Of a DNA stretch of 64,000 bases, positions 196 through 13,187 are shown in pieces. The stretch's first letter is position 1; each line of letters opens with the position of its first letter. The notes under the pieces were generated by a model that did not search any database, was not told the origin of the DNA, and worked only from the letters and a program-made list of their open reading frames with translations. The position numbers were made by a program, and so were the translations under genes. Origin of the DNA: a virus (taxonomy: Duplodnaviria; Heunggongvirae; Uroviricota; Caudoviricetes); the IMG/VR virus record IMGVR_UViG_3300042564_003265. The stretch is one strand, 5' to 3'.

Positions 196-292
196 GTCCA
201 CAATCCATCTTGGTTCAGGACGTATCCAAATGTCCACCGGTTATTTGAAAGCTGTAAGACATTCTACCATCACAGAACCTTCGGGGGTTTTA
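196..292. repeat. GC-rich intergenic element, copy A (AATGTCCACCGG ... GTAAGACATTC)
   Basis: Shares AAATGT(T/C)CA-C and GTAAGACAT motifs with elements at 1600, 2683, 3876, 6896, 9150 and 10688. Confidence 0.6.
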
Positions 293-313
293 ACATTATC
301 ATAACAAAATAAA

Positions 314-346
314 TTTGGTAGTTAAATAAAAAGGTATTACCTTTAC
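314..346 (+). promoter_or_regulatory. Bacteroidetes-type sigma-A promoter (TTTGG - N - TAttaccTTTAC)
   Basis: -33 TTTG and -7 TAnnTTTG-like elements with correct spacing. The cassette aTTTGGtagttaaataaaa is reused upstream of many early genes. Confidence 0.6.
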
Positions 347-368
347 TCCATAATCAAACTACTACAAA

Positions 369-518
369 ATGGAAAACATTAACATCAAAAAATTGATTGA
401 CGACTTACAAGAATTATTAGACAGAGGAGAAACGACACTAAAATTCGAGGGTACAATTGTATGTATCGAACAAGACGGAAGTTGTAATTGTATTAGAAGT
501 ACTAAACCCCAAATGTAA
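369..518 (+). CDS. small early hypothetical protein (49 aa)
   Basis: ATG 23 nt downstream of the promoter; ORF MENINIKKLIDDLQELLDRGETTLKFEGTIVCIEQDGSCNCIRSTKPQM is too short for the ORF track. Confidence 0.35.
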   Translation: MENINIKKLIDDLQELLDRGETTLKFEGTIVCIEQDGSCNCIRSTKPQM

Positions 519-524
519 ACAAAA

Positions 525-719
525 ATGGAAACACTTATTATCACATCATCATCACCACAAGGTCTAAATGAGAAAATCGAAAAGTATTACAACGAGGGTT
601 ATAGAGTTGAGGGAAGTCATCAAGTTGTTGAAACACGTCACCAAAATCGTTTTCGTGGTACTCAACACGTTGATACGTTAATTGAACACGAATACTCAGT
701 TACCTTAACAAAGGTTTAA
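525..719 (+). CDS. hypothetical early protein
   Basis: ORF in a plus-strand operon downstream of the promoter at 314. Confidence 0.45.
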   Translation: METLIITSSSPQGLNEKIEKYYNEGYRVEGSHQVVETRHQNRFRGTQHVDTLIEHEYSVTLTKV

Positions 720-728
720 CAAGAAAAA

Positions 729-761
729 TTTGGTGGTCTCGTATAAAGGTTATACTTTTAC
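729..761 (+). promoter_or_regulatory. Bacteroidetes-type sigma-A promoter
   Basis: TTTGGtggtctcgtataaaggttaTACTTTTAC. Confidence 0.55.
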
Positions 762-780
762 ATTCTAAAATTAAAACACT

Positions 781-987
781 ATGACTTCTACATTTGTAAA
801 AATTGATGAACTACCAATGAAATGTTTTAGATTAACATTTCCTGAAAAAACTTATGATGTGTTTATCCCTGACACTACTGATAGTAGTAGTTGTGTAAAC
901 ATTACTGATGAAAACGGAGACCAAGTTCCATTCGAGGAGTGGGACAATATCCTAATGTTTTTGGGTCATCAAACACAAGAAATTTAA
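781..987 (+). CDS. hypothetical early protein
   Basis: ORF preceded by a promoter and followed by a terminator. Confidence 0.5.
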   Translation: MTSTFVKIDELPMKCFRLTFPEKTYDVFIPDTTDSSSCVNITDENGDQVPFEEWDNILMFLGHQTQEI

Positions 988-1009
988 GGTCGTAAAGATT
1001 CCTTAAACA

Positions 1010-1036
1010 CCCTCAACGAAAGTTGGGGGTTTTTTA
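1010..1036 (+). terminator. rho-independent terminator
   Basis: CCCTCAAC gaaa GTTGGGGG stem (one G-U pair) followed by a T-tract. Confidence 0.6.
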
Positions 1037-1059
1037 TTTCCAAGAAGAATGGTTCGAAA

Positions 1060-1105
1060 AAATCCGACTCCGAATGTTTAACAGCTTTCACCAAATAACC
1101 GGTGA
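1060..1105. repeat. short copy of the intergenic motif (AATGTTTAACAGC ... GGTGAACATTTC)
   Basis: 13-mer variant plus the reverse-complement of the GAAATGTTCACC motif. Confidence 0.45.
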
Positions 1106-1266
1106 ACATTTCTCTACCCCAACAGGTATGAGTCGTTAAAAAAAATTAACGGATTTTAACAAAACTTTTTATCAAAGTATTAGGAAATATCATTTTTATT
1201 CTCGTACTTTGTATTGTTATATTATTCAACACTACAACGGGGACGGGTTACCGAACAACTACTACT

Positions 1267-1557
1267 ATGTTAGAATTTGAATTTGGAATGGACGATGTAA
1301 GTGAGGACATTTATGTCGAGGGTGAGTTCACCGACACTATCACGGAAGAACACGTGTTAAATGTTCTACACTTTGTTAGAAACCAAGAATGGTTTAGTGA
1401 GGGGAACAAAACGGAAGGTGTGATTACCTTCTCCAAAGGAAGTACCGAGGTGATGTGGAACAAAGTCTTTATGGTTATCACGAATAGTGGTGATGTGTTC
1501 GATGAGGTGGAAGGTCCGGAGACCTACACAATCGACCGACAATTCTTCAAGTTCTAA
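1267..1557 (+). CDS. hypothetical early protein (acidic)
   Basis: ORF followed by a strong terminator. Confidence 0.5.
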   Translation: MLEFEFGMDDVSEDIYVEGEFTDTITEEHVLNVLHFVRNQEWFSEGNKTEGVITFSKGSTEVMWNKVFMVITNSGDVFDEVEGPETYTIDRQFFKF

Positions 1558-1569
1558 ACTTGACTACGA

Positions 1570-1598
1570 AACCCTCATCAGAAATGGTGAGGGTTTTT
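1570..1598 (+). terminator. rho-independent terminator
   Basis: AACCCTCA ... TGAGGGTT, perfect 8-bp stem followed by T5. Confidence 0.75.
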
Positions 1599-1599
1599 A

Positions 1600-1665
1600 T
1601 TTGGTGGACAAACCATCTTGGTTCACCGTCAGAGGGAAATGTCCAACAGCTTTTAGATATATCGT
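1600..1665. repeat. GC-rich intergenic element, copy B (GAAATGTCCAACAGC)
   Basis: Shares AACCATCTTGGTTCA with copy A, plus an AATGT(T/C)CAACAGC variant. Confidence 0.55.
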
Positions 1666-1688
1666 TAACAAATTTTTAACAAGAATTA

Positions 1689-1720
1689 TTTGGATATATC
1701 ATTTATATTGTTTTACTTTG
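1689..1720 (+). promoter_or_regulatory. Bacteroidetes-type sigma-A promoter
   Basis: TTTGGatatatcatttatattgttTTACTTTG. Confidence 0.55.
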
Positions 1721-1740
1721 TGGTATTAAATTATAACATT

Positions 1741-2007
1741 ATGAGTAAAAACATTGTTGATTTGTCAAATCTCGATACTTGGGATATGATTAAAGAGTTA
1801 CAAAGTCGTGGTTGGAACACGGAACTACTTTGGTGTAGAGATGATGTTCAAACACAATTAGACGACATCAATGAAGAAAAAAGTGAAGATGAGAAAATCA
1901 CTTTAACTGATGAGGACAAAGATGAAATCTTGGACGACTTGTCTTACGAGTGGTATTGTGAAAGAATAAATGAAGAAATCTATAATAAAATTTTAAACTA
2001 TGAGTAA
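1741..2007 (+). CDS. hypothetical early protein (acidic)
   Basis: Internal ATG 21 nt after the promoter (MSKNIVDLSNL...). The longer track ORF from 1690 would overlap the promoter. Confidence 0.5.
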   Translation: MSKNIVDLSNLDTWDMIKELQSRGWNTELLWCRDDVQTQLDDINEEKSEDEKITLTDEDKDEILDDLSYEWYCERINEEIYNKILNYE

Positions 2008-2233
2008 GAAAAAAGTAAGTAAAAAATGGAGAATTTTATCTCCCGATGGTTTTCCGATTGAGTTCGGAGTATCGTACTACACAAGTAGTGAGAAAATGTA
2101 TGAGAGTTTTGAGAAATGGAAACAACGATACGAACAACAAGGGTATTATAGTACAATTGAAGACGGAAGAAGGATACAAATTCCTTTGGACGAATTGGAA
2201 AACTATTGTTTTGTATCGTGTTTAGATAATTAA
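2000..2233 (+). CDS. hypothetical early protein
   Basis: ORF overlapping the previous gene by 8 nt (ATGA-type coupling). Confidence 0.5.
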   Translation: MSKKKVSKKWRILSPDGFPIEFGVSYYTSSEKMYESFEKWKQRYEQQGYYSTIEDGRRIQIPLDELENYCFVSCLDN

Positions 2234-2245
2234 AACCATAAAACT

Positions 2246-2599
2246 ATGTTAAAAGTTAAAGACCACAACAAGTATCGTCACTTCGACTACGAAAACGAAC
2301 CCAGTAATACGTACCAACTTGGAGATGTGTTACTCAAAAACTATGATGATGATTTAAGTCCTGAGATTGGAGTGGTGATACAAACATTCTCCGATGGTGA
2401 TTTTAGAACTGATATGTGGGGTATGAGTTCTTATAGTGAAGTGTTACGAGCTAAACTATCAGATGTTAAAGAATATAGACCTGACCTTCTATCAGATTTA
2501 ATTATTAACATAGGTGTTTACTTCACCACCGATGATAATGGTGAAATAACATTTGATGTTGAGGAAATGGAAAACGAGTTAGTCCACTTGACTATGTAA
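2246..2599 (+). CDS. hypothetical early protein
   Basis: ORF followed by a terminator. Confidence 0.5.
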   Translation: MLKVKDHNKYRHFDYENEPSNTYQLGDVLLKNYDDDLSPEIGVVIQTFSDGDFRTDMWGMSSYSEVLRAKLSDVKEYRPDLLSDLIINIGVYFTTDDNGEITFDVEEMENELVHLTM

Positions 2600-2654
2600 A
2601 AATAATTCACTATACTTTAATTAGTTTTAGTTTAGTGTTTGGTAGTAAGTTTAA

Positions 2655-2682
2655 AGGTGAACAGAAATGTTCACCTTTTTTC
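2655..2682 (+). terminator. rho-independent terminator
   Basis: GGTGAACA gaaa TGTTCACC, perfect 8-bp stem followed by T6. The same hairpin recurs at 10661. Confidence 0.75.
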
Positions 2683-2835
2683 GTTTCCAAGAATATCTCC
2701 CCGAAAGCCCGGTACAAATGTAATGTTCAACAGCTAAACGCCGTAAGACATCTCGGATTACCAGCGCTGGTCCAGGTAAACACTGGTAAAAACTATCGCC
2801 GTAAGACATTCGTCTGGTTTCGCGCCAGACCCTAA
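2683..2835. repeat. GC-rich intergenic element, copy C (AATGTTCAACAGC-N5-GCCGTAAGACATCT, plus a second GCCGTAAGACATTC)
   Basis: GC-rich island in an AT-rich context. Track ORF 2635-2835 is rejected as coding. Confidence 0.6.
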
Positions 2836-2887
2836 TTCATCTGTTAAAAAAATAATTTAAAATTTAACAAAAAAATATATCAATTTA

Positions 2888-2919
2888 TTTGGTTTATAAA
2901 ATCTCGTGTAGTAAATTTG
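2888..2919 (+). promoter_or_regulatory. Bacteroidetes-type sigma-A promoter
   Basis: TTTGGtttataaaatctcgtgtagTAAATTTG. Confidence 0.6.
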
Positions 2920-2937
2920 TATAAATAATTAAATCGT

Positions 2938-3804
2938 ATGACAGAACAAACTATCTCCACAGGTAACGAGATTACCGACATTTTGAATCAGACAGGTCTG
3001 AATTGGAATGTAAGAACAGAAGAATTACAAACCACATCAGGTATTATTATTCCTGACAAGATTGGTTTAATCCGTGATGACAACAACACTTGTCTTGGTG
3101 TTCACTCGGGTTCGTATGTTCCTTATCAAAATCAGGAACTACTTGAATTGTTATTCCGTATCTCTCAACAAACAGGATTGGAACTTCACACAGGGGGTTC
3201 ATTCAAAGGTGGTGAGAAGGTGTGGTTTCAATTAAAGTCAGAGGACTTGAAGTTATCTAATGACCGAATCGAAGGTTACATTAGTGGGTTCAACTCATTT
3301 GATGGAAGAACGTCATTAGCGTTTGGTAACTCCAACGTTACAGTATCTTGTCAAAATACTTTTTGGAAAGGATACCGAGATGTGGAAACCAAATTGAGAC
3401 ACTCGTCCGCGATGAAACCAAAGATTGAAGAAATTTTGAGAAAGATTGATGTTCTATTACAAGAAGAACAACAAACCTTTGACAACATTCAACGTCTTGG
3501 GAATGTAAGAATGACTGAACAAGTTAAAGACTTGGTTATCCGTAGATTGTTCGACATTCAAAAAGAAGAGAGATTAGATAGTGATGACTTATCAACGAAT
3601 AAGAAAAACAAACTATCTCGTTTCTACATTGACTTGAATGGTGAACTTCAACAAAAAGGTGATAACCTTTGGGGTTTATTTAGTGGTGTAACAAAATATA
3701 CTACTCATTCTATGAAGAAAGGTGATAACACGGAAGGTAAAATCTTCGGACAAGTTGGTTTCAAAGAGAGACAAATTTGGGACAACCTCGTAGAATTGGT
3801 GTAA
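2938..3804 (+). CDS. DUF932-like phage/plasmid-like protein (TIGR03299-type), tentative
   Basis: ~290 aa with an N-terminal ...ILNQTGLNWNV... motif reminiscent of that family, in an early-gene context. Called from memory only. Confidence 0.35.
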   Translation: MTEQTISTGNEITDILNQTGLNWNVRTEELQTTSGIIIPDKIGLIRDDNNTCLGVHSGSYVPYQNQELLELLFRISQQTGLELHTGGSFKGGEKVWFQLKSEDLKLSNDRIEGYISGFNSFDGRTSLAFGNSNVTVSCQNTFWKGYRDVETKLRHSSAMKPKIEEILRKIDVLLQEEQQTFDNIQRLGNVRMTEQVKDLVIRRLFDIQKEERLDSDDLSTNKKNKLSRFYIDLNGELQQKGDNLWGLFSGVTKYTTHSMKKGDNTEGKIFGQVGFKERQIWDNLVELV

Positions 3805-3845
3805 GACATTGATTTGAGGAAATCAATTGGTGACAACCTGTCGAA

Positions 3846-3875
3846 CCCTCGGACTTTTAGTTCGGGGGTTTTTTG
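3846..3875 (+). terminator. rho-independent terminator
   Basis: CCCUCGGAC uuuua GUUCGGGGG, 9-bp stem (2 G-U pairs) followed by U6. Confidence 0.6.
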
Positions 3876-4030
3876 TTTCCTGTGTACTGTACCTGCACAG
3901 GACCTGGACAGATGTTCAACGGCGAATGGCCGTAAGACATTCACCTGCTGCAGCGCTGCGCTGTTGCGCTGCTTTACTTATTTAACCGGTAGACATCTCA
4001 CCAGTTCAGGGCTGGGGAATTATTCTTCTT
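3876..4030. repeat. GC-rich intergenic element, copy D (GATGTTCAACGGC-gaatg-GCCGTAAGACATTC; ACCGGTAGACATCTC; CAGCGC repeats)
   Basis: Best-preserved copy. Motif pair is separated by 5 nt and can form an imperfect hairpin (AATGT...ACATT outer stem, ACGGC/GCCGT inner stem). Confidence 0.65.
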
Positions 4031-4061
4031 AAAAAACTTTAACACTTTTTAACAAAATAAA

Positions 4062-4093
4062 TTTGGTAGTTAAATAAAACTATATTACTTTTA
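4062..4093 (+). promoter_or_regulatory. Bacteroidetes-type sigma-A promoter
   Basis: TTTGGtagttaaataaaactataTTACTTTTAC. Confidence 0.6.
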
Positions 4094-4112
4094 CATCATT
4101 AAACAAAGAGAT

Positions 4113-4256
4113 ATGAAACTATATTATTATTTACCCAAAGGAGGTTCAGGTATTGGATTCAGTATTAGAGGAAATGATTTAGTAGAAATTAAAAAATCTA
4201 TTAAATCTATTTTAGGTGTTAAGACATTAAGAGGTGTACAAATTTGGGAGGGTTAA
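4113..4256 (+). CDS. small early hypothetical protein (47 aa)
   Basis: ATG 20 nt after the promoter; MKLYYYLPKGGSGIGFSIRGNDLVEIKKSIKSILGVKTLRGVQIWEG. Confidence 0.3.
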   Translation: MKLYYYLPKGGSGIGFSIRGNDLVEIKKSIKSILGVKTLRGVQIWEG

Positions 4257-4276
4257 CAAAAATTTAACTAAAATTA

Positions 4277-4309
4277 TTTGGTAGTTAAATAAAACTATAT
4301 TACTTTTAC
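4277..4309 (+). promoter_or_regulatory. Bacteroidetes-type sigma-A promoter
   Basis: Identical cassette TTTGGtagttaaataaaactataTTACTTTTAC. Confidence 0.6.
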
Positions 4310-4331
4310 ATCGTAATCAAAAACAACTACA

Positions 4332-4550
4332 ATGATAAAGTCAATCGAAGAAAAAGTAACTAAATTAGAAATCGACCTTACAGGTCCAGAGGGAAACTCA
4401 TTTGTCCTATTAGGTATGGTCAAAGATTTATCTAAACAATTAGGATTAGATGGTCAGAAAATTAGATTTGAAATGACAAGTGGAGACTATGAACACCTTG
4501 TCAATACGTTCGACAAGTATTTTGGTGAGTATGTAACATTATATCGTTAA
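4332..4550 (+). CDS. hypothetical early protein
   Basis: ORF 23 nt after the promoter. Confidence 0.5.
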   Translation: MIKSIEEKVTKLEIDLTGPEGNSFVLLGMVKDLSKQLGLDGQKIRFEMTSGDYEHLVNTFDKYFGEYVTLYR

Positions 4551-4566
4551 CAAAAATTTAAATCAT

Positions 4567-4935
4567 ATGGACAACATTAAAGAAATTATCAAAAAAACAA
4601 TGGTACCCAAAGGTTTCTTATCATCAAATGATAGACCTACACAAAGGGCGATAGAGATGTTTTTCATCTATCTCTCACATTTACCAAAAGGTTGGGATGT
4701 TAAAAAAATTAACCGGAATTCAATCGAAGAAGTTAGAAACTACTTTAGGGTTGATTATGGATTCGAGGCGATGATTGCTTGGGGTATAACTATTGGTTGT
4801 GCGAAATCTAACACTTCAAAAGGAAGGTACGAGGCGATGTCAGTTGCTTTCACAATTGCCCAAGGTATGATTGGACAAGGGGTTGTAGTTACTAAAAAAA
4901 CATTATGTCCTACCGAATATTTAAAAGTTGCTTAA
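4567..4935 (+). CDS. hypothetical early protein
   Basis: ORF in the operon. Confidence 0.5.
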   Translation: MDNIKEIIKKTMVPKGFLSSNDRPTQRAIEMFFIYLSHLPKGWDVKKINRNSIEEVRNYFRVDYGFEAMIAWGITIGCAKSNTSKGRYEAMSVAFTIAQGMIGQGVVVTKKTLCPTEYLKVA

Positions 4936-4955
4936 CAAAACTTTAACTAAAATTA

Positions 4956-4988
4956 TTTGGTAGTTAAATAAAACTATATTACTTTTAC
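4956..4988 (+). promoter_or_regulatory. Bacteroidetes-type sigma-A promoter
   Basis: Third copy of the TTTGGtagttaaataaaactataTTACTTTTAC cassette. Confidence 0.6.
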
Positions 4989-5018
4989 ATCATTAAATCA
5001 CAACTAATAAAAAAACTT

Positions 5019-6099: not shown

Positions 6100-6846
6100 G
6101 TGAATAAAATTCAAACAGGTAAAAAAGTAGGAGAAATCTTTGAGACCAAAGATTATTCAATCTTCAAGTTTCGTGATGACAATCGTATTGTGAACACGAA
6201 CCACGTTAAAAAACTTTCACAACGAATGAAAGACAATGGTTGGTTATCTACATCAGTTGTAACAATCAACGGAAGTGGAGAAGTAATTGACGGACAACAT
6301 AGAGTCAAAGCCGCGATGTCGGTGGGTTGTCCAATCCGTTACAAATGTGTAAGGGGAGCGGGTAGTGATGAAATGACATCAATGAACACACTTCAACGAA
6401 ATTGGAGTCCGTTTGACCACTTACATAAGTTTGTTAAGAAAGGAAATCCTAACTACATAACTTTCCAAAAGTTTACAGAGGAGTTTCCAATGTTTAAGTA
6501 CACGGAAATCGCGATGTTGTTACAAAATAGTACAACATCAATCAAAAGAGATAATTTTGATAGTGGTAATTATGTCGTGAGAAACGAAAAGAAAGGTCGT
6601 TTGTGGGGACAATACTTATTAGAGTTGAAACCATACTTTGAAAAGTATTACAACAAATCAATCTTTGTTAGAGGTTTCTTAAAAATCATCTCAAACAAAA
6701 AGGAGTTTGTATTTGAGGAGTTTTTACACAAAGTAAAATTGAGACCAAATATGTTGGTCGCGTGTGGAACTACCGAACAATATATTGAGATGATTGAGAA
6801 CATTTACAATTATAAGAGAAGTAATAAAGTGAATTTGAGATTTTAG
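6100..6846 (+). CDS. ParB/Srx-fold (ParB-like nuclease domain, DUF262-like) protein
   Basis: GTG start. N-terminal domain with ...VVTINGSGEVIDGQHRVKAA... resembling the DGQQR/DGQHR motif of ParB-like nuclease / DUF262 domains. Confidence 0.4.
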   Translation: MNKIQTGKKVGEIFETKDYSIFKFRDDNRIVNTNHVKKLSQRMKDNGWLSTSVVTINGSGEVIDGQHRVKAAMSVGCPIRYKCVRGAGSDEMTSMNTLQRNWSPFDHLHKFVKKGNPNYITFQKFTEEFPMFKYTEIAMLLQNSTTSIKRDNFDSGNYVVRNEKKGRLWGQYLLELKPYFEKYYNKSIFVRGFLKIISNKKEFVFEEFLHKVKLRPNMLVACGTTEQYIEMIENIYNYKRSNKVNLRF

Positions 6847-6868: not shown

Positions 6869-6895
6869 GGGGGTGTAGAAATACACCCTTTTTTT
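6869..6895 (+). terminator. rho-independent terminator
   Basis: GGGGGTGTAgaaaTACACCC followed by T7. Near-identical to the terminator at 166-193. Confidence 0.75.
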
Positions 6896-6990
6896 ATGTC
6901 CAAGAATTGTTGAACCCGCAGCGGGTTTGAATGTTCAACGGCGATAACACAAAAGCCGGAGGACATTTACCATCCAGGAACAGAAAAATT
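6896..6990. repeat. GC-rich intergenic element, copy E (GAATGTTCAACGGC ... GCCGGAGGACATTTACC)
   Basis: 13-mer perfect, second motif degenerate. Also an AACCCGCagcGGGTT hairpin. Confidence 0.6.
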
Positions 6991-8399: not shown

Positions 8400-8410
8400 A
8401 ACTACAAAAA

Positions 8411-9094
8411 ATGAAAATAGTAATCAGTAATCAAAGATTTGACTACAACTTGGGAGTAAGATTGTTAAAGTCAAAATATAGAGAGTGTCCAGATTGGATT
8501 GACATTCAAGACATTTGGAACGACATTGAACCAATGACATTCAAAGAAGTCGCTAAGTCATTTAAGAATGTTGAGGAACGAAGAATTGCGATTGGGTGTT
8601 TGGGTATTACAAATATCGCAGAGGAATTAAATCCTGTGTTGGTTAAGAGTGAAACCTTAAATAAACAAACCACTTGGGTTAAACCTGATGGTGAGTTGTT
8701 TACCAAGAAGTTTGATGATACCTACGAACTTTACAAAGTGAAGAAGGAAGATTTGTTAGATGGTACTGAACGTAGTTGGGGTTTAGATGATGTGTACTTT
8801 TTGAAGTTCAAAGACACATCAACCGATAGGGAGTATATGTTGTGGATTGACAGGGATAGTGTCGCTCGGGTGAATAACAAACAACGACATTTTTCTTCTG
8901 ATATGAGAAACGAAATTACTCCAACCCAATGTATCGCTTGGACTATTCAGACAGATATTGTTGAAGGTGGGATTGAGAAGATTGTTCGTCAGGGTGATTG
9001 TATCTTAATTAAAAAGAAACCAACCGCAGAGAAGGGTAGTGTAAGACACATTACCGAAAGTGAGTATCGAAATTTATTGGTGTTAGAAAGTTAG
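8411..9094 (+). CDS. hypothetical early protein
   Basis: ORF followed by a terminator. Confidence 0.5.
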   Translation: MKIVISNQRFDYNLGVRLLKSKYRECPDWIDIQDIWNDIEPMTFKEVAKSFKNVEERRIAIGCLGITNIAEELNPVLVKSETLNKQTTWVKPDGELFTKKFDDTYELYKVKKEDLLDGTERSWGLDDVYFLKFKDTSTDREYMLWIDRDSVARVNNKQRHFSSDMRNEITPTQCIAWTIQTDIVEGGIEKIVRQGDCILIKKKPTAEKGSVRHITESEYRNLLVLES

Positions 9095-9117
9095 TAGTTC
9101 ATAGGTTTAATGGTTAA

Positions 9118-9147
9118 AACCCTTCGCTTTTAGTGAGGGGTTTTTTT
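9118..9147 (+). terminator. rho-independent terminator
   Basis: CCCUUCGC uuuua GUGAGGGG followed by U7. Confidence 0.55.
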
Positions 9148-9149
9148 AT

Positions 9150-9300
9150 GTATAATGATTTCCGACGCTGCGCTGAGGGTGAATGTTCAACAGCTTTTAA
9201 CCGGTAGACATCTCTACATTGCTGTGCAAAACCAGAAGAGTAAAAAAAAGCCCCGACATTGCTGTCGAGGCTCGGGACTTACTAACCATCCACAAAGAAA
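9150..9300. repeat. GC-rich intergenic element, copy F (GAATGTTCAACAGC-N6-CCGGTAGACATCTC)
   Basis: Also holds a CCCGA...TCGGG hairpin with an A/T-tract that can terminate the minus-strand gene 9308-9703. Confidence 0.55.
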
Positions 9301-9307
9301 CACTATA

Positions 9308-9703
9308 CTAAATCGTACCTTCTATTCCGTGTATTTTCTTGGTAATACGTTTACCCTTCTTTTCGTAGTTCTCGTATCCAATTAAGAAGTTGTCTTTTTG
9401 AGTTCCAATTAAACAAGAACCTTCAACTTTAACATTACCATAATTTACTTTCAACTGCTTCATAAAAGAATTGAAAGACTTTTCAAGTTTACGCCCTATG
9501 ACATCTGACGGAGGTACAGGTGCGTTTTCAATTCGGTAATGTGTTCCTATTCTTGAAAATTTAATTCCATACATAGACTTCTTTTCAAATCCCGGAACAC
9601 TTTGACTCAAGCAACTTCTCATAGAGTCGAGGGACTTCTTTAAAGTTTGTGTTGTGTCTTTTCTTGGTTTTTGTATCATAACAAATTTTGTTTGTTTCCA
9701 CAA
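9308..9703 (-). CDS. hypothetical protein; the only minus-strand gene inside the plus-strand early block
   Basis: 131-aa basic ORF in opposite orientation, flanked by a GC-rich element and a promoter-rich A/T tract. No recognisable motifs. Confidence 0.4.
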   Translation of the reverse strand: MWKQTKFVMIQKPRKDTTQTLKKSLDSMRSCLSQSVPGFEKKSMYGIKFSRIGTHYRIENAPVPPSDVIGRKLEKSFNSFMKQLKVNYGNVKVEGSCLIGTQKDNFLIGYENYEKKGKRITKKIHGIEGTI

Positions 9704-9756
9704 AAGTAATGCTAATATGTTAATAAAAAAAAAATAAAAAAAAAATATCCATAATA

Positions 9757-9789
9757 TTTGGGTATATCAAAGTAATAGCCGTATATTTG
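9757..9789 (+). promoter_or_regulatory. Bacteroidetes-type sigma-A promoter (consensus)
   Basis: TTTGGgtatatcaaagtaatagccgTATATTTG. Confidence 0.65.
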
Positions 9790-9829
9790 TACTCGGGATA
9801 TTTATCTATTACAATATAAACATCTGAAT

Positions 9830-10624
9830 ATGAAACTAACCGATATAATTAACGAGTCACCAGAGAGGGAAGTTGGTGAAGGGGGTTACTCCAGAGTAAT
9901 GACATCTATGAGAGGAGCCGTTCCTAAAATTAAAACCATAGGAATCCTAACCGCCCATAATCCTTGTGCAAATGAACTTTCGCCAGAGGAAAACAATAGA
10001 CGTAATGCTCGACTTGAAAAAGAATTGGGTAGTTACTTATTTGGATACAGGAAGGTGAAGGGTAAGTACGGGACAGAGGAAGATAGTTTCTTGGTAAACA
10101 ACATTACTAAAAAGCAATTGCTGCAACTTGGAAATGATTATGAACAAGAGAGTGTTATCTTTGGTGATTACTTTGAGGAGGGTGAAGAGTATGGTATGAA
10201 CTTCTCAATGATTAGGACTCATACTTGCGACACTGATGAACCGGTTGGTTCTATAATGGGTATCAGAAAAGTATTCATTGACAGAAACAACTCTGATAAC
10301 TTCTACTCCGAGATTAAGGGACGTAAATTCCAAATCCCATTCTTCGAAGTACCAACCTTTGATGATAAAGATGGAACACAGACAGGTGAGAAGTTCAAGC
10401 ATATGTATGATGACCATTATGATAATGCATCGTTTGATGGTGGTAAAGTAGTTGGTAGTATTAGAACATACCCAAACAAAAAAGATGTGGCAGATAAAAT
10501 ATCTGATGAGGACAAGAAAGAGATTGAGAAGTTAAATGACCAATCCTTAAATGAGAATAAGACTTTATCTAACGGATACAATAAAAGAGGTAGGATTATT
10601 AATATCCTTAACAAATATATGTAA
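9830..10624 (+). CDS. hypothetical early protein
   Basis: 264-aa ORF followed by a terminator. Confidence 0.5.
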   Translation: MKLTDIINESPEREVGEGGYSRVMTSMRGAVPKIKTIGILTAHNPCANELSPEENNRRNARLEKELGSYLFGYRKVKGKYGTEEDSFLVNNITKKQLLQLGNDYEQESVIFGDYFEEGEEYGMNFSMIRTHTCDTDEPVGSIMGIRKVFIDRNNSDNFYSEIKGRKFQIPFFEVPTFDDKDGTQTGEKFKHMYDDHYDNASFDGGKVVGSIRTYPNKKDVADKISDEDKKEIEKLNDQSLNENKTLSNGYNKRGRIINILNKYM

Positions 10625-10660
10625 GATTGTTTTTTAGTGGTTATGATTTAATCGAAGAAG

Positions 10661-10687
10661 GGTGGACAGAAATGTTCACCTTTTTTT
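10661..10687 (+). terminator. rho-independent terminator
   Basis: GGTGGACA gaaa TGTTCACC followed by T7. Confidence 0.7.
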
Positions 10688-10875
10688 GTGCTAATAATCG
10701 TCCGACGCACAGCTCGGCGACAAATGTTCAACGGCGAATAGCCGTATGACATCTACCATCGCAGCGCAAACGCCAGGCATTTCTGGTTTATTGCGCGCAA
10801 ATACCAGTTTTTACCAGGCACAGTCTCCAGCGCAACAGGGAGGATGTTCAACGGCTTAGTAGCCGATAAACTTTT
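10688..10875. repeat. GC-rich intergenic element, copy G (AAATGTTCAACGGC-gaata-GCCGTATGACATCTACC; second GATGTTCAACGGC; CAGCGC repeats)
   Basis: Two copies of the 13-mer within one element. Confidence 0.65.
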
Positions 10876-10896
10876 TTAAAAATATATAAAGATTTA

Positions 10897-10929
10897 TTTG
10901 GAATACGGTCCATATTGTATTACCTTTAC
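10897..10929 (+). promoter_or_regulatory. Bacteroidetes-type sigma-A promoter
   Basis: TTTGGaatacggtccatattgtatTACCTTTAC. Confidence 0.5.
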
Positions 10930-10952
10930 ACTGTTATAAAAAAAAGACACTT

Positions 10953-11078
10953 ATGTGGAAGATATTCAAGACCGCACTCAAGATTACCATCACCGTTTGG
11001 TTAATAAAATCCATATGGAATGATATTGGACAGGAGGATGTTGACAAGCTTAAGTCAGTCTTTAAACAAATCAATTAA
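10953..11078 (+). CDS. small hydrophobic early protein (41 aa)
   Basis: ATG 24 nt after the promoter; MWKIFKTALKITITVWLIKSIW... includes a TM-like stretch. Confidence 0.3.
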   Translation: MWKIFKTALKITITVWLIKSIWNDIGQEDVDKLKSVFKQIN

Positions 11079-11096
11079 AATAAAACAAACACAATT

Positions 11097-11606
11097 ATGG
11101 CCAGAAACAACAGACTTATTGAAGTCGTGTTCTCAAACGTTATCGGTAACGACGAACGTGTGAGTCAGTACGAGAAATTTTTAACTACAGACAAAGCCCT
11201 TGGTATTGAGGAGACTGAAGACATCAGAGACGCTAAAGCTTTGTATGCATCTATCATCAAGAATAACAAGACTGTTTTGGATGAACTTGCAAAGCTTGAG
11301 GAATCAATTGTACAGTTAAGATGTCGTGAGCAAGTGCTAAAGGAATTCAAATTGTCCAAGGTACGTGAGTATATCTATGCAAGAGCATTATTTTTTAGAC
11401 CCGGTCGTGAGGTGAAGGACATCCGTGTAGTGGTTGGTCGAACAGACGTCTACGGGGAGGACCTTCAGGACCTAATGTTCAACGGCGACTTTATGACGAT
11501 AGCCCGAGCTAAACTATCTGAGGCAATGGATTATGAGATTACTGAGAACAAATATTATATCAGAAATCTTAAGACGAAGTATGGGAAAAAAATGTTAGTA
11601 AAATAA
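11097..11606 (+). CDS. hypothetical early protein
   Basis: 169-aa ORF. Contains an in-frame copy of TAATGTTCAACGGC at 11473. Confidence 0.5.
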   Translation: MARNNRLIEVVFSNVIGNDERVSQYEKFLTTDKALGIEETEDIRDAKALYASIIKNNKTVLDELAKLEESIVQLRCREQVLKEFKLSKVREYIYARALFFRPGREVKDIRVVVGRTDVYGEDLQDLMFNGDFMTIARAKLSEAMDYEITENKYYIRNLKTKYGKKMLVK

Positions 11607-11627
11607 ATCTAGAATTATTTGGAATAT

Positions 11628-11649
11628 TCTAGAATATATTTTAATTTAC
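11628..11649 (+). promoter_or_regulatory. Bacteroidetes-type sigma-A promoter
   Basis: TTTGGaatattctagaatatattTTAATTTAC. Confidence 0.45.
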
Positions 11650-11668
11650 ACCCCTAAACCAAACACAT

Positions 11669-12022
11669 ATGAATTTCATATCTCAATTGAATACCATTAG
11701 GGATTCGATGCACCGTGAATTAGTTCAGGAAGCAACAGTACGTACATTTATAAAAGAAGATAGTACCGACGGTTTCATAGAACTGGTAGAACCATTTAGA
11801 TTTTATAAGGATGACTATCATCCGCTAAAAGGTAATTACACATACGAGTGTTACGTGATAGGAATTCATAGTTTGTCTGGTGATTTGATGGGAGAAGACA
11901 TTGACGGATTCCAAAGATGTATTAACTACAGGGACCTGAGTCTTGAGGAGATGTCAAAGCTCCACGAATATATTGTGCAACAAAAACAATTTAAATTTAG
12001 ACTGTATGACGAAAAGAATTAA
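11669..12022 (+). CDS. hypothetical early protein
   Basis: ORF. Confidence 0.5.
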   Translation: MNFISQLNTIRDSMHRELVQEATVRTFIKEDSTDGFIELVEPFRFYKDDYHPLKGNYTYECYVIGIHSLSGDLMGEDIDGFQRCINYRDLSLEEMSKLHEYIVQQKQFKFRLYDEKN

Positions 12023-12416
12023 AGTACGGTTCAATCTCGGACGAGGTCCTAATTACCTGAAGTGGAAGGTGTCATACCCGAACGGGGAGGTAATGTATTA
12101 CCATCCGACCGGTACACAGCTCACAATGAGGGGCTGTACACTGAAGAATAATAAAAGTGCAGCACAAAAGATATTCCGTGGTGAGACTAATAAGACAGTT
12201 TGTGCTTGGGTCCTATGTGAGGGTATCGATATTAAGTTTGATAACTTCGAACAGCACGACCTTGGTAAGAGCCCAAGGTTGAAGTATAATCCTCGGGTAG
12301 CTCCGTCTTGGATGATAGAGTACACACATATGCATCACTCCGACATCAGGGTTGACAATGAGTACTTCAATCAAATCTCCTCAGTGGATTACAGATTATT
12401 CATTACTAAAATTTAA
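12006..12416 (+). CDS. hypothetical early protein
   Basis: ATG at 12006 (MTKRIKVRFNLGRG...). The track ORF begins at an upstream TTG. Confidence 0.45.
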   Translation: MTKRIKVRFNLGRGPNYLKWKVSYPNGEVMYYHPTGTQLTMRGCTLKNNKSAAQKIFRGETNKTVCAWVLCEGIDIKFDNFEQHDLGKSPRLKYNPRVAPSWMIEYTHMHHSDIRVDNEYFNQISSVDYRLFITKI

Positions 12417-12418
12417 AT

Positions 12419-12568
12419 AATGGAAAATAACGAGCAACAAGAAATGTTCACATCAGATGAGGTGGACCATATAGTGAAGAAGGTAAGAAATTACCAAGCA
12501 AATATTGGTATACTCATTGCAGCAATTGTAATGGGTCTGTTATTCTTGAGGGACTACCTGATGAGATA
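12419..12568 (+). CDS. small membrane protein (49 aa)
   Basis: MENNEQQEMFTSDEVDHIVKKVRNYQANIGILIAAIVMGLLFLRDYLMR, with a C-terminal TM helix. Confidence 0.3.
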
Positions 12569-12613
12569 ACAGCACCGTCGTAAATGTTTAACGGCTAACT
12601 AATTTTTTTATAT

Positions 12614-12820
12614 ATGAAACGCACACTAAATCGTATCGGCTGGTGGTTTGACTACTACATCGCCTATTTCCTGTACCACCCAACTAAAAGGAAACGTTAC
12701 CACAGGTATATGTTCCACAAGTATGGTAAGTTATATGACCAACGATGTCCCAACTGCCATAAAGAGAAATCCCCGTATGAAAACTTAGAACAACTACGTC
12801 GAGGACGTTCAAAACATTAG
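12614..12820 (+). CDS. small basic protein
   Basis: ORF preceded by the TAAATGTTTAACGGC motif at 12581. Confidence 0.4.
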   Translation: MKRTLNRIGWWFDYYIAYFLYHPTKRKRYHRYMFHKYGKLYDQRCPNCHKEKSPYENLEQLRRGRSKH

Positions 12821-12821
12821 T

Positions 12822-13187
12822 ATGAGAATATTCCTCATTTTTGCAACGTTGTTTGCCTCCTTCAGTATTCTGTACCCCCCTTGGGGGACACAGTTACTTT
12901 CTGTTGCAGTTTTAAATCTGTGTCTACATCTGTTGGACCTGAAGACGGTGACAAATGTTCAACGGCCAAAACCAAGGGTCAAAAAGCCGGAAGACATTCC
13001 CAAGGCCCCTGTGCCTGAGTCACCTCCTCCACCCTACGTTCAGGATGTCCTTTCAGGACTTTCGAATATGGGACTTAAGAAGTCCGAAGCCGTTAGACTT
13101 GTATTACAGGTCCGTCGGGAGGAACCGTCCCTTCGGGACACAGGTGAAATTCTAAAGAGATGTATTACTCTATCCTATAAAAAATAG
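12822..13187 (+). CDS. questionable ORF in a GC-rich region: N-terminal TM helix, Pro-rich linker, RuvA domain III-like C-terminus
   Basis: C-terminus DVLSGLSNMGLKKSEAVRLVLQV...TGEILKRCI resembles the RuvA C-terminal helical domain. The region is ~50% GC and contains the AAATGTTCAACGGC ... GCCGGAAGACATTCC element and a GTCCC-UUCG-GGGAC hairpin, so it may instead be non-coding. Confidence 0.3.
   Translation: MRIFLIFATLFASFSILYPPWGTQLLSVAVLNLCLHLLDLKTVTNVQRPKPRVKKPEDIPKAPVPESPPPPYVQDVLSGLSNMGLKKSEAVRLVLQVRREEPSLRDTGEILKRCITLSYKK

What the first reader, a model, noticed from the sequence alone, without database searches (positions are those of the whole stretch)
196..13010. Recurrent GC-rich intergenic element with conserved AATGTTCAAC(G/A)GC and (G)CCGTAAGACAT(C/T)(T/C) motifs between early transcription units
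At least ten copies of the 13-mer AATGTT(C/T)AAC(G/A)GC occur in the first 13 kb (1063, 1635, 2722, 3911, 6929, 9181, 10722, 10843, 11473, 12581, 12952); a random 13-mer is expected about 0.0004 times. In five intergenic copies a second motif follows 5-6 nt downstream (2741 GCCGTAAGACATCT, 3929 GCCGTAAGACATTC, 9200 CCGGTAGACATCTC, 10741 GCCGTATGACATCT; degenerate versions at 6955 and 12995). Extra solitary GCCGTAAGACATTC, ACCGGTAGACATCTC and CAGCGC repeats lie nearby. The elements are local ~45-55% GC islands in a ~33% GC genome. Each sits between the rho-independent terminator of one early unit and the sigma-A promoter of the next (terminator - element - TTTGG promoter - genes). The motif pair can form an imperfect hairpin (AATGT/ACATT outer stem, ACGGC/GCCGT inner stem), so it could be a structured RNA such as a processing or stability site, or a retroregulator. 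It could also be a binding site for a phage DNA-binding protein; candidates in the window are the ParB-like protein at 6100, the AP2-like protein at 13250 and the DnaA-domain-IV protein at 25620. A second-class (middle/late) promoter or a miniature mobile/recombination element are further options. The same GTA(A/T)GAC core is iterated in the 13.45-14.05 kb region.
Basis: seen in the sequence. Interest (0 to 1): 0.75.

Follow-up and report, generated by a model that had tools for sequence, protein, structure and literature searches.

The report
Terminator-linked repeat boxes in phage early region
The two repeated motifs are real: they are one local version of a boundary element that follows almost every transcription terminator in the early-gene arm of a large group of uncultured Bacteroidota phages, and they most likely act as protein-binding punctuation and recombination points, although what binds them is unknown.

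Summary
AATGTTYAACRGC (the "L box") occurs 8 times exactly, 0.02 expected, all on the + strand within 1-13 kb. A second box, (G/A)CCG(T/G)WRGACAT (the "Y box"), follows it. Eight copies lie after intrinsic terminators. Seven of those precede Bacteroidetes-type sigma-A promoters.

Related metagenomic phages, on contigs up to 335 kb, carry the same module at the same places. The L box has a different sequence in each lineage: at least 16 types on one frame, ATGTT-N4-GGCAA. In 13 lineages, 139 of 149 predicted terminators are followed by L at a median of 39 nt (IQR 36-44), across a spacer with no conserved sequence or structure. L often has an inverted partner. The convergent arrangement is strongly preferred (134 against 9), and the gap between the arms varies.

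Y is conserved across lineages, as CGTATTACA in most. It resembles the GTATGAC iterons that lie beside a conserved 64-aa protein.

The arms covary. There is no G.U versus A.C bias, most L copies are solitary, and there is no Rfam match. The ParB-fold protein does not track the L type. Strain comparisons show gene conversion and cassette gain or loss at the elements.

Best reading, with confidence about 0.4: these are double-stranded DNA sites for phage proteins at cassette boundaries, and they also serve as substrates for recombination. The closest known analogue is the T4-type PeSL. I class it as a new variant of a known kind.

The parts
163..300 (+). Boundary module E1. Terminator 163-190 with its T-tract. 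Degenerate L box 229-241 (AATGTCCACCGGT). Y box 251-263 (GCTGTAAGACAT). It is followed by the promoter at 314.
1009..1140 (+). Boundary module E2. Terminator 1009-1030. L-like box 1073-1085 (AATGTTTAACAGC). Y-like box 1098-1110 (ACCGGTGAACAT). Read on the - strand it is the same unit as E1, so the palindromic unit is inverted here.
1568..1665 (+). Boundary module E3. Terminator 1568-1597. Solitary L box 1638-1650 (AATGTCCAACAGC). Promoter at 1689.
2653..2845 (+). Boundary module E4. Terminator 2653-2678. L box 2722-2734. Y boxes 2740-2752 and 2798-2810. G+C-rich filler with ACCAGCGCTGGT-type palindromes. Promoter at 2888.
3843..4025 (+). Boundary module E5. Terminator 3843-3871. L box 3911-3923 (GATGTTCAACGGC). 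Y boxes 3929-3941 and 3985-3997. CAGCGC-rich filler. Promoter at 4062.
6869..6985 (+). Boundary module E6, directly downstream of the ParB-fold gene. Terminator about 6869-6895. L box 6930-6942. Y box 6955-6967 (GCCGGAGGACAT). Promoter at 7027.
9116..9240 (+). Boundary module E7. Terminator 9116-9144. L box 9182-9194. Y box 9200-9212 (ACCGGTAGACAT). No L/Y hairpin is predicted and no adjacent + strand promoter is present. It abuts the terminator of the - strand gene 9308-9703.
10661..10876 (+). Boundary module E8. Terminator about 10661-10687. L box 10723-10735 and Y box 10741-10753. A second L box at 10843-10855 has a degenerate inverted partner at 10862-10874. Promoter at 10897. In strain variant L006, a duplicated 10719-10753 flanks an inserted GP88 cassette.
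11474..11486 (+). Solitary L box inside ORF 11097-11606. It is invariant in six strain variants.
12583..12595 (+). Solitary L box in the 44-nt gap between ORFs 12420-12569 and 12614-12820.
12954..12998 (+). L box 12954-12966 plus Y box 12986-12998, inside the linker of the ORF 12822-13187 (transmembrane segment plus RuvA_C-like domain). The homologous ORFs in L009 and L010 carry their own lineage's L boxes.
13250..13444 (+). Gene for a conserved 64-aa basic protein (beta-sheet plus helix). It is the candidate binder of the Y box and the iterons.
13450..14090 (+). Non-coding region between convergent gene blocks. It holds 8 GTATGAC iterons, all on the + strand, and two full Y boxes (13540-13552, 13584-13596).
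6100..6846 (+). Gene for a ParB/KorB/Noc-fold protein with a DGQHR motif.

Best explanation
The two motifs are the local version of a boundary module that punctuates the early-gene arm of a large clade of uncultured Bacteroidota-type phages, many of them jumbo phages.

The order of the module is:
1. An intrinsic terminator.
2. A spacer of about 39 nt with no conserved sequence.
3. The L box. The family frame is ATGTT-N4-GGCAA. Here it reads AATGTTCAACGGC.
4. Optionally the Y box. It reads CGTATTACA in most lineages. Here it reads GCCGTAAGACAT, and it doubles as the imperfect inverted partner of L.
5. Optionally an inverted L copy.
6. G+C-rich filler.
7. A phased TTTAACAA tract.
8. The sigma-A promoter of the next unit.

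I propose that L and Y are double-stranded DNA recognition sites for phage-encoded proteins. The L binder is unidentified. Y is probably bound by the conserved 64-aa protein, which has weak AP2 or integrase-arm-domain-like fold matches and whose gene sits beside a GTATGAC iteron array. Bound at a fixed offset behind each terminator, these proteins would form a nucleoprotein mark. That mark would insulate or shut off the tandem early transcription units, for example as a polar roadblock to RNA polymerase that reads through the terminator, or as an early-arm silencer.

The boxes are the longest repeats in the arm, so they also drive ectopic gene conversion and the gain or loss of gene cassettes. 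Gene conversion would keep the copies within one genome identical while the weakly constrained N4 core drifts between lineages.

Shown: distribution, geometry, conservation, concerted evolution and recombination.
Inferred: protein binding and any effect on transcription.
For: - Enrichment and strand bias. L occurs 8 times exactly against 0.02 expected, only in the early arm.
- Family-wide module with lineage-specific L. At least 16 types share one frame, in 28 loci, with up to 57 copies per 16 kb.
- Link to terminators. 139 of 149 terminators in 13 lineages have L at a median of 39 nt (IQR 36-44). The spacer is neither conserved nor structured: mean z = -0.5, and only the first few bases after the T-tract are weakly conserved.
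- L is conserved as sequence even where no hairpin can form. This applies to E7, to solitary L copies (507 + strand against 323 - strand sites) and to copies inside ORFs at equivalent linker positions in three lineages.
- Polar pairing. Convergent L-R pairs with a gap of 30 nt or less number 134. Divergent pairs number 9 and tandem pairs 18 and 9. This is the geometry expected of a defined operator-like unit.
- No RNA-type bias. G.T mismatches number 116 and A.C 97, and the commonest mismatch is T.T at 143.
- Y is enriched and conserved across lineages. CGTATTACA occurs 128 times on the + strand and 41 on the - strand, against 4.5 expected per strand. Y resembles the iterons next to the 64-aa gene in 11 lineages.
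- Purifying selection. L and Y are invariant among six strain variants, while the flanks are replaced in patches.
- Not a host element. The strict palindrome is absent from 185,579 bacterial and archaeal genomes apart from one hit.
Against: - No binding protein has been identified for L. The only clear sequence-specific DNA-binder fold in the arm is the ParB-like protein, and it does not co-vary with L.
- The distance from L to the next promoter varies from about 20 to about 170 nt, unlike classical operators.
- The fixed offset of about 39 nt from the terminator is not predicted by any known operator mechanism. It is explained only loosely by the roadblock idea.
- The gap between L and R varies from 0 to 24 nt or more, which is unusual for a rigid dimeric binder and more typical of a hairpin loop.
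- Conserved mismatches in the middle of the arms are also typical of protein-recognised hairpins.
- No expression or binding data exist for this uncultured clade.
Confidence: 0.4

Rival explanations
1. Structured nucleic acid. L, the loop (often holding Y) and R fold as a hairpin in RNA that reads through the terminator, or in transiently single-stranded DNA. An RNase III-type processing enzyme, a stabilising factor or an antitermination factor recognises the hairpin, much as it would the intercistronic sites of the T7 early region or a boxB hairpin.
For: - The hairpin is predicted in E1, E5, E6 and E8, with z about -2.7 for three whole elements.
- The arms covary across lineages. 84% of cells are paired, 9 of 13 pairs change on both sides, and the covariation score is 0.37 against 0.145 for shuffles and at most 0.125 for slid controls.
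- Loop length is free, and the loop often carries the conserved Y sequence.
- Mismatches in the middle of the stem are conserved.
- A fixed distance from the terminator hairpin would suit a co-transcriptional fold.
Against: - The element lies after an intrinsic terminator and before the next promoter, so only read-through RNA could contain it.
- About 60% of L copies have no partner. In lineage L010 there are 34 + strand against 4 - strand copies.
- E7 keeps both boxes but no hairpin.
- There is no excess of G.U over A.C (116 against 97).
- The spacer is unstructured.
- There is no Rfam match even at E <= 1.
- Covariation of inverted repeats is equally expected for a palindromic protein-binding site.
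Confidence: 0.2
2. Purely recombinational or selfish repeats. Like the PeSL of T4-type phages or bacterial REP elements, the boxes have no regulatory role. They persist because they mediate homologous or site-specific exchange of early gene cassettes and are homogenised by gene conversion.
For: - The GP88 cassette insertion in L006 is flanked by a duplicated L-Y segment (window 10719-10753). Other indels lie between repeated promoters.
- Patchy replacement occurs right next to L. The patch in L003 at E7 matches the flank of E8.
- Genes such as the ParB-like gene are swapped between lineages as ORF-sized blocks, while the intergenic boxes keep the type of the resident genome.
- The arm consists of many small ORFs in one orientation, with presence or absence differing between strains.
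Against: - Homology alone does not explain the 39-nt offset from terminators, which is held across lineages whose proteins are only 40-50% identical.
- It does not explain the strict convergent polarity.
- It does not explain conservation of the ATGTT and GGCAA flanks and of Y across at least 16 lineages.
- It does not explain the copies kept inside ORFs.
- No integrase, Y1 transposase (RAYT) or other recombinase appears in the precomputed Pfam hits for window genes between about 1 and 55 kb.
- The attC core sequences RYYYAAC and GTTRRRY are not matched.
Confidence: 0.15
3. A parS or OB-like array. The L/R palindromes are the binding sites of the ParB/KorB-fold protein encoded at 6100-6846. 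This protein loads there and silences the early promoters at a distance, as KorB does on plasmid RK2 (comparison from my own knowledge of KorB).
For: - The model of the protein has mean pLDDT 84. Its best PDB matches are ParB, Noc, Spo0J and KorB across both the N-terminal domain and the helix-turn-helix domain, with Foldseek probability 1.00.
- The gene is present in all 28 motif-bearing loci. Loci were selected by this gene, so this is weak evidence.
- Loci whose ParB-like protein is 36% identical or less show no repeat.
- Zero-gap L-R pairs are palindromes of about 24-30 bp with TGTT...AACA ends, as in parS.
Against: - Lineages with the same L type (T1) have proteins only 47-52% identical, with different putative recognition helices: SMSTIKR, TLSTIAR, SLNGSNR and NANPVHR.
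- Lineages with clearly different L types have proteins 74-89% identical.
- The gene is a horizontally exchanged outlier relative to the backbone phylogeny that L follows.
- The arginine patch GERRxR is replaced by DGQHR.
- The protein matches no Pfam or NCBIfam family at the thresholds used.
Confidence: 0.08
4. Second-class promoters. L, or L plus Y, is a promoter for a phage-encoded sigma factor or RNA polymerase. It would give each early unit a tandem middle promoter, as in T4.
For: - Solitary L copies and Y are biased to the + strand.
- The pattern of conserved flanks around a variable core resembles the promoter families of T7-like phages (from my own knowledge).
- In L010, L sits about 20 nt upstream of the promoter's -33 element.
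Against: - 323 inverted copies would fire into the preceding terminator.
- Only about 16% of L copies have a Y within 2-9 nt, and that spacing is not fixed.
- The distance to the downstream genes varies.
- No phage RNA polymerase or sigma factor was seen in the annotated 55 kb.
Confidence: 0.07

Closest known systems
PeSL (promoter-early stem-loop) cassettes of T4-type myoviruses (PMC2839356, PMC4122927)
   Same: Both are repeated composite terminator/promoter sequences between small early ORFs in plastic regions of large lytic phage genomes. In both, insertions, deletions and replacements between close relatives are bounded by the repeats.
   Different: Here two extra conserved boxes (L and Y), G+C-rich filler and about 100-250 bp separate the terminator from the promoter. 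L sits at a fixed offset of about 39 nt from the terminator. The L sequence is specific to each lineage. The phages are unrelated to T4 at the level tested and have Bacteroidetes-type promoters.
REP/BIME extragenic palindromes of bacteria (PMC3733652)
   Same: Both are short imperfect palindromes with a defined asymmetry. Both are specific to a species or lineage, are placed after the 3' ends of genes, and occur singly or in alternating orientation.
   Different: The elements here have no GTAG or CGTC tag. No RAYT gene was found. They are confined to one genome arm of a phage. The basic unit (L) is itself not palindromic, and most copies are solitary.
KorB-OB operator network of plasmid RK2 and ParB-parS (from my own knowledge; structures 8qa9 and 7bnk were matched)
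   Same: In both, a ParB-fold protein is encoded among the regulated genes, and many copies of a palindromic site lie at variable distances upstream of promoters.
   Different: Here the protein and the site do not co-vary. The gaps between half-sites are variable. The sites are tied to terminators rather than to promoters.
Integron attC sites, including the species-specific VCR-type repeats of chromosomal integrons (from my own knowledge)
   Same: Both are imperfect inverted repeats with a variable central part and conserved mismatches, placed at the 3' end of each small gene cassette in a one-directional array. Both are homogeneous within a lineage and differ between lineages, and cassette content varies between strains.
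   Different: No integrase was found. The cassettes carry their own promoters and terminators. The core sequences RYYYAAC and GTTRRRY are not matched. Many solitary half-sites are present.
RNase III processing hairpins of the T7 early region and the lambda or rrn boxA/boxB sites (from my own knowledge)
   Same: Both are repeated hairpins with internal loops between early cistrons.
   Different: Those sites lie inside transcripts, downstream of promoters and upstream of terminators. The elements here lie after terminators and show no RNA-type wobble bias.

Membership tests
PeSL (T4-type promoter-early stem-loop) | A compact composite of a stem-loop terminator immediately followed by an early host-type promoter. 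| tested here: inconclusive
   A terminator and a sigma-A-like promoter flank seven of the eight elements. They are 100-250 bp apart, with conserved L and Y boxes between them.
PeSL (T4-type promoter-early stem-loop) | Boundaries of insertions, deletions and replacements between close relatives map to the repeats. | tested here: met
   The GP88 insertion in L006 is flanked by a duplicated 10719-10753. Other indels lie between promoter repeats. Patchy conversion occurs next to L.
PeSL (T4-type promoter-early stem-loop) | Occurs in T4-like myoviruses. | tested here: not met
   No nucleotide match was found in 50,697 phage records, and no protein match closer than about 31% identity.
REP/BIME | An imperfect palindrome of 20-40 bp carrying a GTAG or CGTC tag at one end. 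| tested here: not met
   L-R pairs are imperfect palindromes, but the conserved ends are ATGTT and AACAT.
REP/BIME | An associated RAYT (Y1 transposase) gene. | tested here: not met
   No Y1_Tnp hit appears among the precomputed Pfam hits for genes of window 1-55 kb. The rest of the genome was not seen.
Integron attC | Core sites RYYYAAC ... GTTRRRY at the base of the hairpin. | tested here: not met
   The base of the palindrome is AATGTT...AACATT, and GTTCAAC, GTTTGGC and GTTATTG do not fit GTTRRRY (direct reading of the sequences).
Integron attC | An adjacent IntI tyrosine recombinase and promoterless cassettes. | tested here: not met
   No integrase Pfam hit was found. Most cassettes have their own promoter and terminator.
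ParB-parS / KorB-OB | A ParB-family protein with an N-terminal domain and a helix-turn-helix DNA-binding domain. | tested here: met
   The AlphaFold model has mean pLDDT 84.3. The top Foldseek PDB matches are ParB, KorB, Noc and Spo0J over about 200-240 columns, with probability 1.00 and low TM-score (0.28-0.35), consistent with a different orientation of the two domains.
ParB-parS / KorB-OB | The site and the protein's specificity evolve together. | tested here: not met
   Lineages with the same L type have proteins 47% identical. Lineages with different L types have proteins 89% identical. The putative recognition helices do not correlate with L type.
ParB-parS / KorB-OB | Direct binding of the protein to the site. 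| not testable with these tools
   Needs EMSA or ChIP.
Structured cis-acting RNA (RNase III site, nut site, Rfam families) | A match to a curated RNA family. | tested here: not met
   No hit at the gathering threshold in 64 kb. Only one chance-level snoRNA hit (E = 0.75) in 1-14.5 kb.
Structured cis-acting RNA (RNase III site, nut site, Rfam families) | Base pairing maintained by compensatory change and G.U tolerance on the transcribed strand. | tested here: inconclusive
   The arms covary across lineages. An inverted DNA repeat predicts the same result. G.T and A.C mismatches number 116 and 97.
Phage RNA-polymerase or alternative-sigma promoter | One orientation, with fixed internal spacing and a fixed distance to the transcription start. 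| tested here: not met
   323 inverted copies are present. The L-Y spacing is 2-9 nt and only 16% of L copies have a Y.

The most novel reading that the evidence does not exclude
The L box is a terminator-coupled DNA signal of a kind not described before. A phage factor bound about 39 bp behind each intrinsic terminator would act on RNA polymerase after termination. It might capture or redirect the polymerase towards the next early promoter. It might also act as a polar barrier that makes each small early cassette an autonomous unit that can be swapped. The factor's code would drift and be re-homogenised in every phage lineage.
Probability: 0.15. Interest if true: 0.85.

Novelty: new variant of a known kind. 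Interest (0 to 1): 0.62.

Why it matters
If the reading is right, a widespread clade of uncultured freshwater and marine Bacteroidota phages, on contigs of up to about 335 kb, organises tens of kilobases of early, largely anti-defence-like genes with a regular "grammar". Each unit runs terminator, then a fixed 39-nt gap, then a lineage-specific box, then a conserved box, then a promoter.

This would matter in four ways:
- It gives a sequence handle for finding early-gene arms and cassette boundaries in metagenomic phage contigs.
- It offers a natural system for studying concerted evolution of cis-elements.
- It points to an unidentified trans-acting factor.
- It provides a testable link between transcription termination, insulation and modular gene shuffling that goes beyond the PeSL model.

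If the boxes turn out to be only recombination scars, the finding is still a clear new example of repeat-mediated cassette exchange outside the T4 group.

Tried and rejected
- Cultured relatives. Megablast of 1-14 kb and tblastn of a 610-aa protein against 50,697 phage records found nothing. DUF932 and the ParB-like protein reach only about 31% identity or less. No experimental system is therefore available.
- tRNA and Rfam scans were negative.
- An exact search for the L-Y pattern in IMG/VR found nothing. The window's own lineage is absent from that collection.
- The CCCACCGTTGGTGG repeats in L008 turned out to be coding 60-bp tandem repeats and are irrelevant.
- DUF932 as the specificity factor. 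Its identity separates the L types perfectly (at least 83% within a type, at most 80% between types). Most other genes show the same backbone pattern, so this reflects phylogeny, not evidence.
- fam7, a small FlbD-like protein, is also concordant with L type, but it simply evolves fast.
- The spacer between terminator and L as a conserved hairpin was rejected: mean z = -0.5.
- L plus Y as a rigid bipartite site or an ECF-type promoter was rejected because of variable spacing and low co-occurrence.
- Host origin of the palindrome. There is only one hit in the collection of 185,579 bacterial and archaeal genomes, and no hit for the strict form in IMG/VR.
- Similarity of CTTTAACAA to the rrn boxA was considered. 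I judged it to be phased A/T-rich DNA upstream of the promoter, because it lies upstream of the predicted transcription start.
- A match to the sigma-54 -24/-12 promoter was considered and rejected on spacing.

Full report
**1. Checking the observation**

The exact pattern AATGTTYAACRGC occurs 8 times in the 64-kb window. All copies are on the + strand and all lie between 1073 and 12954. Dinucleotide shuffles give 0.02. Two further copies have one mismatch (3911, 10843) and two have two mismatches (1638, 5697). The other 50 kb holds only weak matches with 2-3 mismatches. One of these, at 53588, lies inside a coding sequence.

The second motif is also enriched. CCGTAAGACAT with up to 1 mismatch occurs 9 times against 0.88 expected. 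A wider pattern gives 12 + strand copies.

Each of the eight + strand intrinsic terminators in 1-11 kb is followed by the first motif. A Bacteroidetes-type promoter (TTTG-N19-21-TAnnTTTG) follows seven of the eight elements.

- Some coordinates are off by up to 10 nt.
- The elements are 39-52% G+C against a background of 34%.
- Element E7 is not followed by a promoter.
- Three copies lie in or next to ORFs (11474, 12583, 12954).
- The proposed hairpin is the predicted fold in E1, E5, E6 and E8. It is not predicted in E7, which keeps both motifs.

I call the first motif L and the second Y.

**2. Source of the window**

The window is identical to JGI metagenome contig Ga0453230_0000052. On that contig the same array of small + strand genes continues for at least 7 kb upstream of window position 1.

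No cultured relative exists in the phage collection. Relatives are abundant in lake and marine metagenomes, on contigs of up to 224-335 kb.

The promoters are of the Bacteroidetes type. The early genes include families typical of the first-entering regions of mobile elements: DUF932, DUF3846, DUF6891, DUF1281_C, DUF4241, a SAM-lyase-like protein, PcfJ, and a protein with a ParB fold.

**3. The comparative result**

Loci fetched through DUF932 (L001, L008-L011) and through the ParB-like protein (L014-L093) show the same architecture. The repeated box is different in each lineage. Examples are:

| Lineage or locus | L box |
|---|---|
| Window | AATGTTCAACGGC |
| L009 | AATGTTATTGGGCAA |
| L008 | ATGTTGTTGGGCA |
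| L010 | AATGTTAATGAGCAA |
| L011 | AGTTTTTCGGCAA |
| L001 | ATTTTGGTTGGC |
| L020, L021, L037, L039 | AATATTGTTTGGCAA |
| L016, L018 | ..GTTTCGCAC |
| L032-L036, L045 | GATTTTGTCTGGAAA |

At least 16 types fit one frame, ATGTT-N4-GGCAA. The flanks are fairly conserved and the core is variable. Copy density reaches 57 per 16 kb. Loci whose ParB-like protein is 36% identical or less to the query show no such repeat.

Relatives do lack this particular motif at the equivalent positions, but they carry a replacement motif, and the inverted partner changes with it.

**4. Geometry**

I predicted terminators with a simple script in 13 lineages. Of 149 terminators, 139 are followed by L. The median distance from the end of the T-tract is 39 nt, with an interquartile range of 36-44.

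The intervening spacer averages 46% G+C. It has only a weak ATKTCC-like start. It is not consistently structured: mean z = -0.5 against shuffles. By contrast, the distance from L to the next promoter ranges from about 20 to about 170 nt.

L sites number 507 on the + strand and 323 on the - strand. Neighbouring sites with a gap of 30 nt or less are overwhelmingly convergent: L then inverted L, with the GGCAA ends facing inward. The counts are 134 convergent, 9 divergent, and 18 and 9 tandem. Gaps of 0-24 nt are common, and each lineage has preferred lengths.

**5. The Y box**

In most lineages a second, conserved box, CGTATTACA, is strongly enriched. It occurs 128 times on the + strand and 41 on the - strand in 720 kb. 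Many of the - strand copies come from loci held in reverse orientation. About 4.5 per strand are expected.

It lies in three places:
- 2-9 nt after L, though only about 16% of L copies have it.
- Just upstream of the phased CTTTAACAAAAnTTTAACAA tract that precedes the promoters.
- In clusters in the non-coding region beside a conserved small basic protein, as in L024.

The region 13450-14090 lies between convergent gene blocks. It holds eight + strand GTATGAC iterons and two full Y boxes. The 64-aa gene with a downstream GTATGAC or GTATTAC array is conserved in 11 lineages.

The model of the 64-aa protein has mean pLDDT 85 and consists of a beta-sheet followed by a helix. Its PDB matches include AP2 domains and the arm-binding domains of integrases. 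The E-values are only 0.35-2, so the fold assignment is suggestive rather than established.

**6. RNA or DNA?**

A hand-built alignment of 42 L/R pairs from 18 loci, with the loops cut out, gives these figures:

| Measure | Value |
|---|---|
| Cells paired | 84% |
| Pairs (of 13) with changes on both sides | 9 |
| Covariation score, observed | 0.37 |
| Covariation score, shuffled | 0.145 |
| Covariation score, slid controls | at most 0.125 |

This shows that the arms are true inverted repeats that change together. A palindromic protein-binding site predicts the same result, so it does not decide between RNA and DNA.

Several observations argue against RNA:
- The elements lie after terminators and before promoters.
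- Most L copies are solitary.
- In L010 the ratio is 34 + strand to 4 - strand copies.
- E7 does not fold.
- Among 267 L/R pairs, G.T (116) and A.C (97) mismatches are balanced, and T.T (143) is the commonest.
- There is no Rfam match.

Other observations favour a hairpin:
- Loop length is free.
- Y is often in the loop.
- Mismatches are conserved in the middle of the arms (window TCA against CTT; L008 GT against CA; L011 G against C; type T1 T against A).

I therefore keep the hairpin reading as the main rival.

**7. Candidate binding proteins**

The protein at 6100-6846 matches no Pfam or NCBIfam family at the thresholds used. Its model (mean pLDDT 84) matches ParB, Noc, Spo0J and KorB over both domains, with probability 1.00. 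So it is a ParB-fold protein. It carries DGQHR in place of GERRxR.

It does not track L. The four loci with the same L type (T1) have proteins only 47-52% identical across the two sub-lineages, with different putative recognition helices. Loci with different L types have proteins up to 89% identical.

Most other shared genes, DUF932 included, place the window with L009, L010 and L040, whose L boxes also resemble the window's. Only the ParB-like gene, and one other, place the window with L016-L024. L therefore follows the backbone phylogeny, and the ParB-like gene is a horizontally exchanged outlier. The apparent association of DUF932 with L type is phylogeny, not evidence.

If the variable N4 core is not contacted by any protein, no specificity switch is needed. 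Drift combined with gene conversion would then explain the lineage-specific versions.

**8. Recombination**

Among six strain variants that are 95-100% identical, L and Y are invariant. The 5-30 nt next to them are replaced in patches. The patch in L003 at E7 matches the flank of E8, which indicates ectopic gene conversion.

One cassette insertion (GP88 in L006) is flanked by a duplicated L-Y segment. Other indels lie between promoter repeats. ORFs such as the ParB-like gene move between lineages as gene-sized blocks, while the intergenic boxes keep the type of the resident genome.

**9. Interpretation**

The best-supported model is that L and Y are double-stranded DNA sites for phage proteins. 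Together they would form a boundary mark behind each terminator. The mark would insulate or silence the tandem early units, and gene conversion and cassette shuffling would follow as consequences.

I put this at about 0.4. No binder for L has been found, and the 39-nt offset has no precedent among known operators.

The rivals are:
- A read-through RNA or single-stranded DNA hairpin: 0.2.
- Recombination-only repeats: 0.15.
- A parS- or OB-like array for the ParB-fold protein: 0.08.
- Second-class promoters: 0.07.

**10. Comparison with known systems, and novelty**

The closest known system is the PeSL of T4-type phages (PMC2839356, PMC4122927). REP/BIME elements, the KorB-OB network, integron attC sites and the T7 RNase III sites each share some features. 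Each fails at least one defining test; see the membership table.

I found no description of this module in the literature searches I ran.

I rate it a new variant of a known kind. The terminator-coupled fixed offset and the family-wide pattern of lineage-specific L boxes are the new features.

Noticed in passing
window 13450-14090 (and L009 about 18400-18800, L024 10545-11349): A 600-bp non-coding region between the convergent + and - gene blocks carries eight GTATGAC iterons, all on the + strand, plus G+C-rich hairpins. It lies directly downstream of a conserved 64-aa basic protein. The same gene-plus-iteron pairing recurs in 11 lineages. It may be a replication origin or a control region.
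   Followed up: partly
window 6066-6095 and 1238-1262; L001 8068-8098: A conserved 5'-leader motif, CGGGGAC(A/G)GG...(C)TGAACAA, precedes the start codon of the ParB-fold gene and of ORF 1267-1557. It is kept in relatives that are otherwise only about 30-50% identical. It may be a translational or regulatory signal.
   Followed up: no
L016, L018, L020, L021 upstream of the ParB-like gene (for example L020 about 3110-3135); window 25620-25985: Perfect DnaA boxes (TGTGGATAA, the reverse complement of TTATCCACA), single or tandem, lie upstream of the ParB-like promoter in several relatives. The window encodes a 121-aa protein consisting only of DnaA domain IV (TIGR00362, E = 8e-19).
   Followed up: no
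window 6100-6846 compared with L016-L024: The ParB-fold gene is a horizontally exchanged module. It is 74-78% identical to lineages whose other shared genes are only 29-57% identical to the window. It is only 40-52% identical to the lineages that are otherwise closest.
   Followed up: yes
window 4023-4107, 4252-4339, 4932-4990, 5966-6049: Near-identical promoter repeats (TTTGGTAGTTAAATAAAACTATATTACTTTTACATC with its upstream TTTAACAAAA tract) precede several small ORFs that have no terminator or L box before them. Strain variants lose the 47-aa cassette (4113-4256) and the 122-aa cassette (4567-4935) by recombination between these repeats.
   Followed up: partly
window 9248-9703: A single - strand gene (131 aa), with its own terminator (9273-9248) and promoter region, is embedded in the otherwise uniformly + strand early arm. 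Relatives such as L008 (14941-15300) have the same arrangement.
   Followed up: no
window 1-13200 and L002 1-7063: The early arm is rich in families typical of the first-entering (leading) regions of conjugative elements and of anti-defence islands. These include DUF932, DUF3846, DUF6891, DUF3293/SAM-lyase-like and L5 gp82-like proteins. Relatives add DUF1281_C, DUF4241, DUF4314 and GP88.
   Followed up: no
L008 8745-9160 and 16856-17173: Two ORFs contain 60-bp tandem coding repeats (TTAATCCCACCGTTGGTGGA...). These are repeat proteins unrelated to the intergenic boxes.
   Followed up: partly
window 2760-2775, 3945-3975, 10755-10800; L010 10960-11035; L039 4880-4900: The filler between the boxes is enriched in CAGCGC, GCGCTG and GCGCATGCGC palindromic strings in many lineages. 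This may be a third recognition motif or simply G+C-rich repeat debris.
   Followed up: no
window 43080-45568, 48417-49511, 52777-56624: The window encodes two DNA methyltransferases, a thymidylate-synthase homologue, an AdoMet-decarboxylase-like protein and two glycosyltransferases. Together these suggest that the phage DNA is modified.
   Followed up: no
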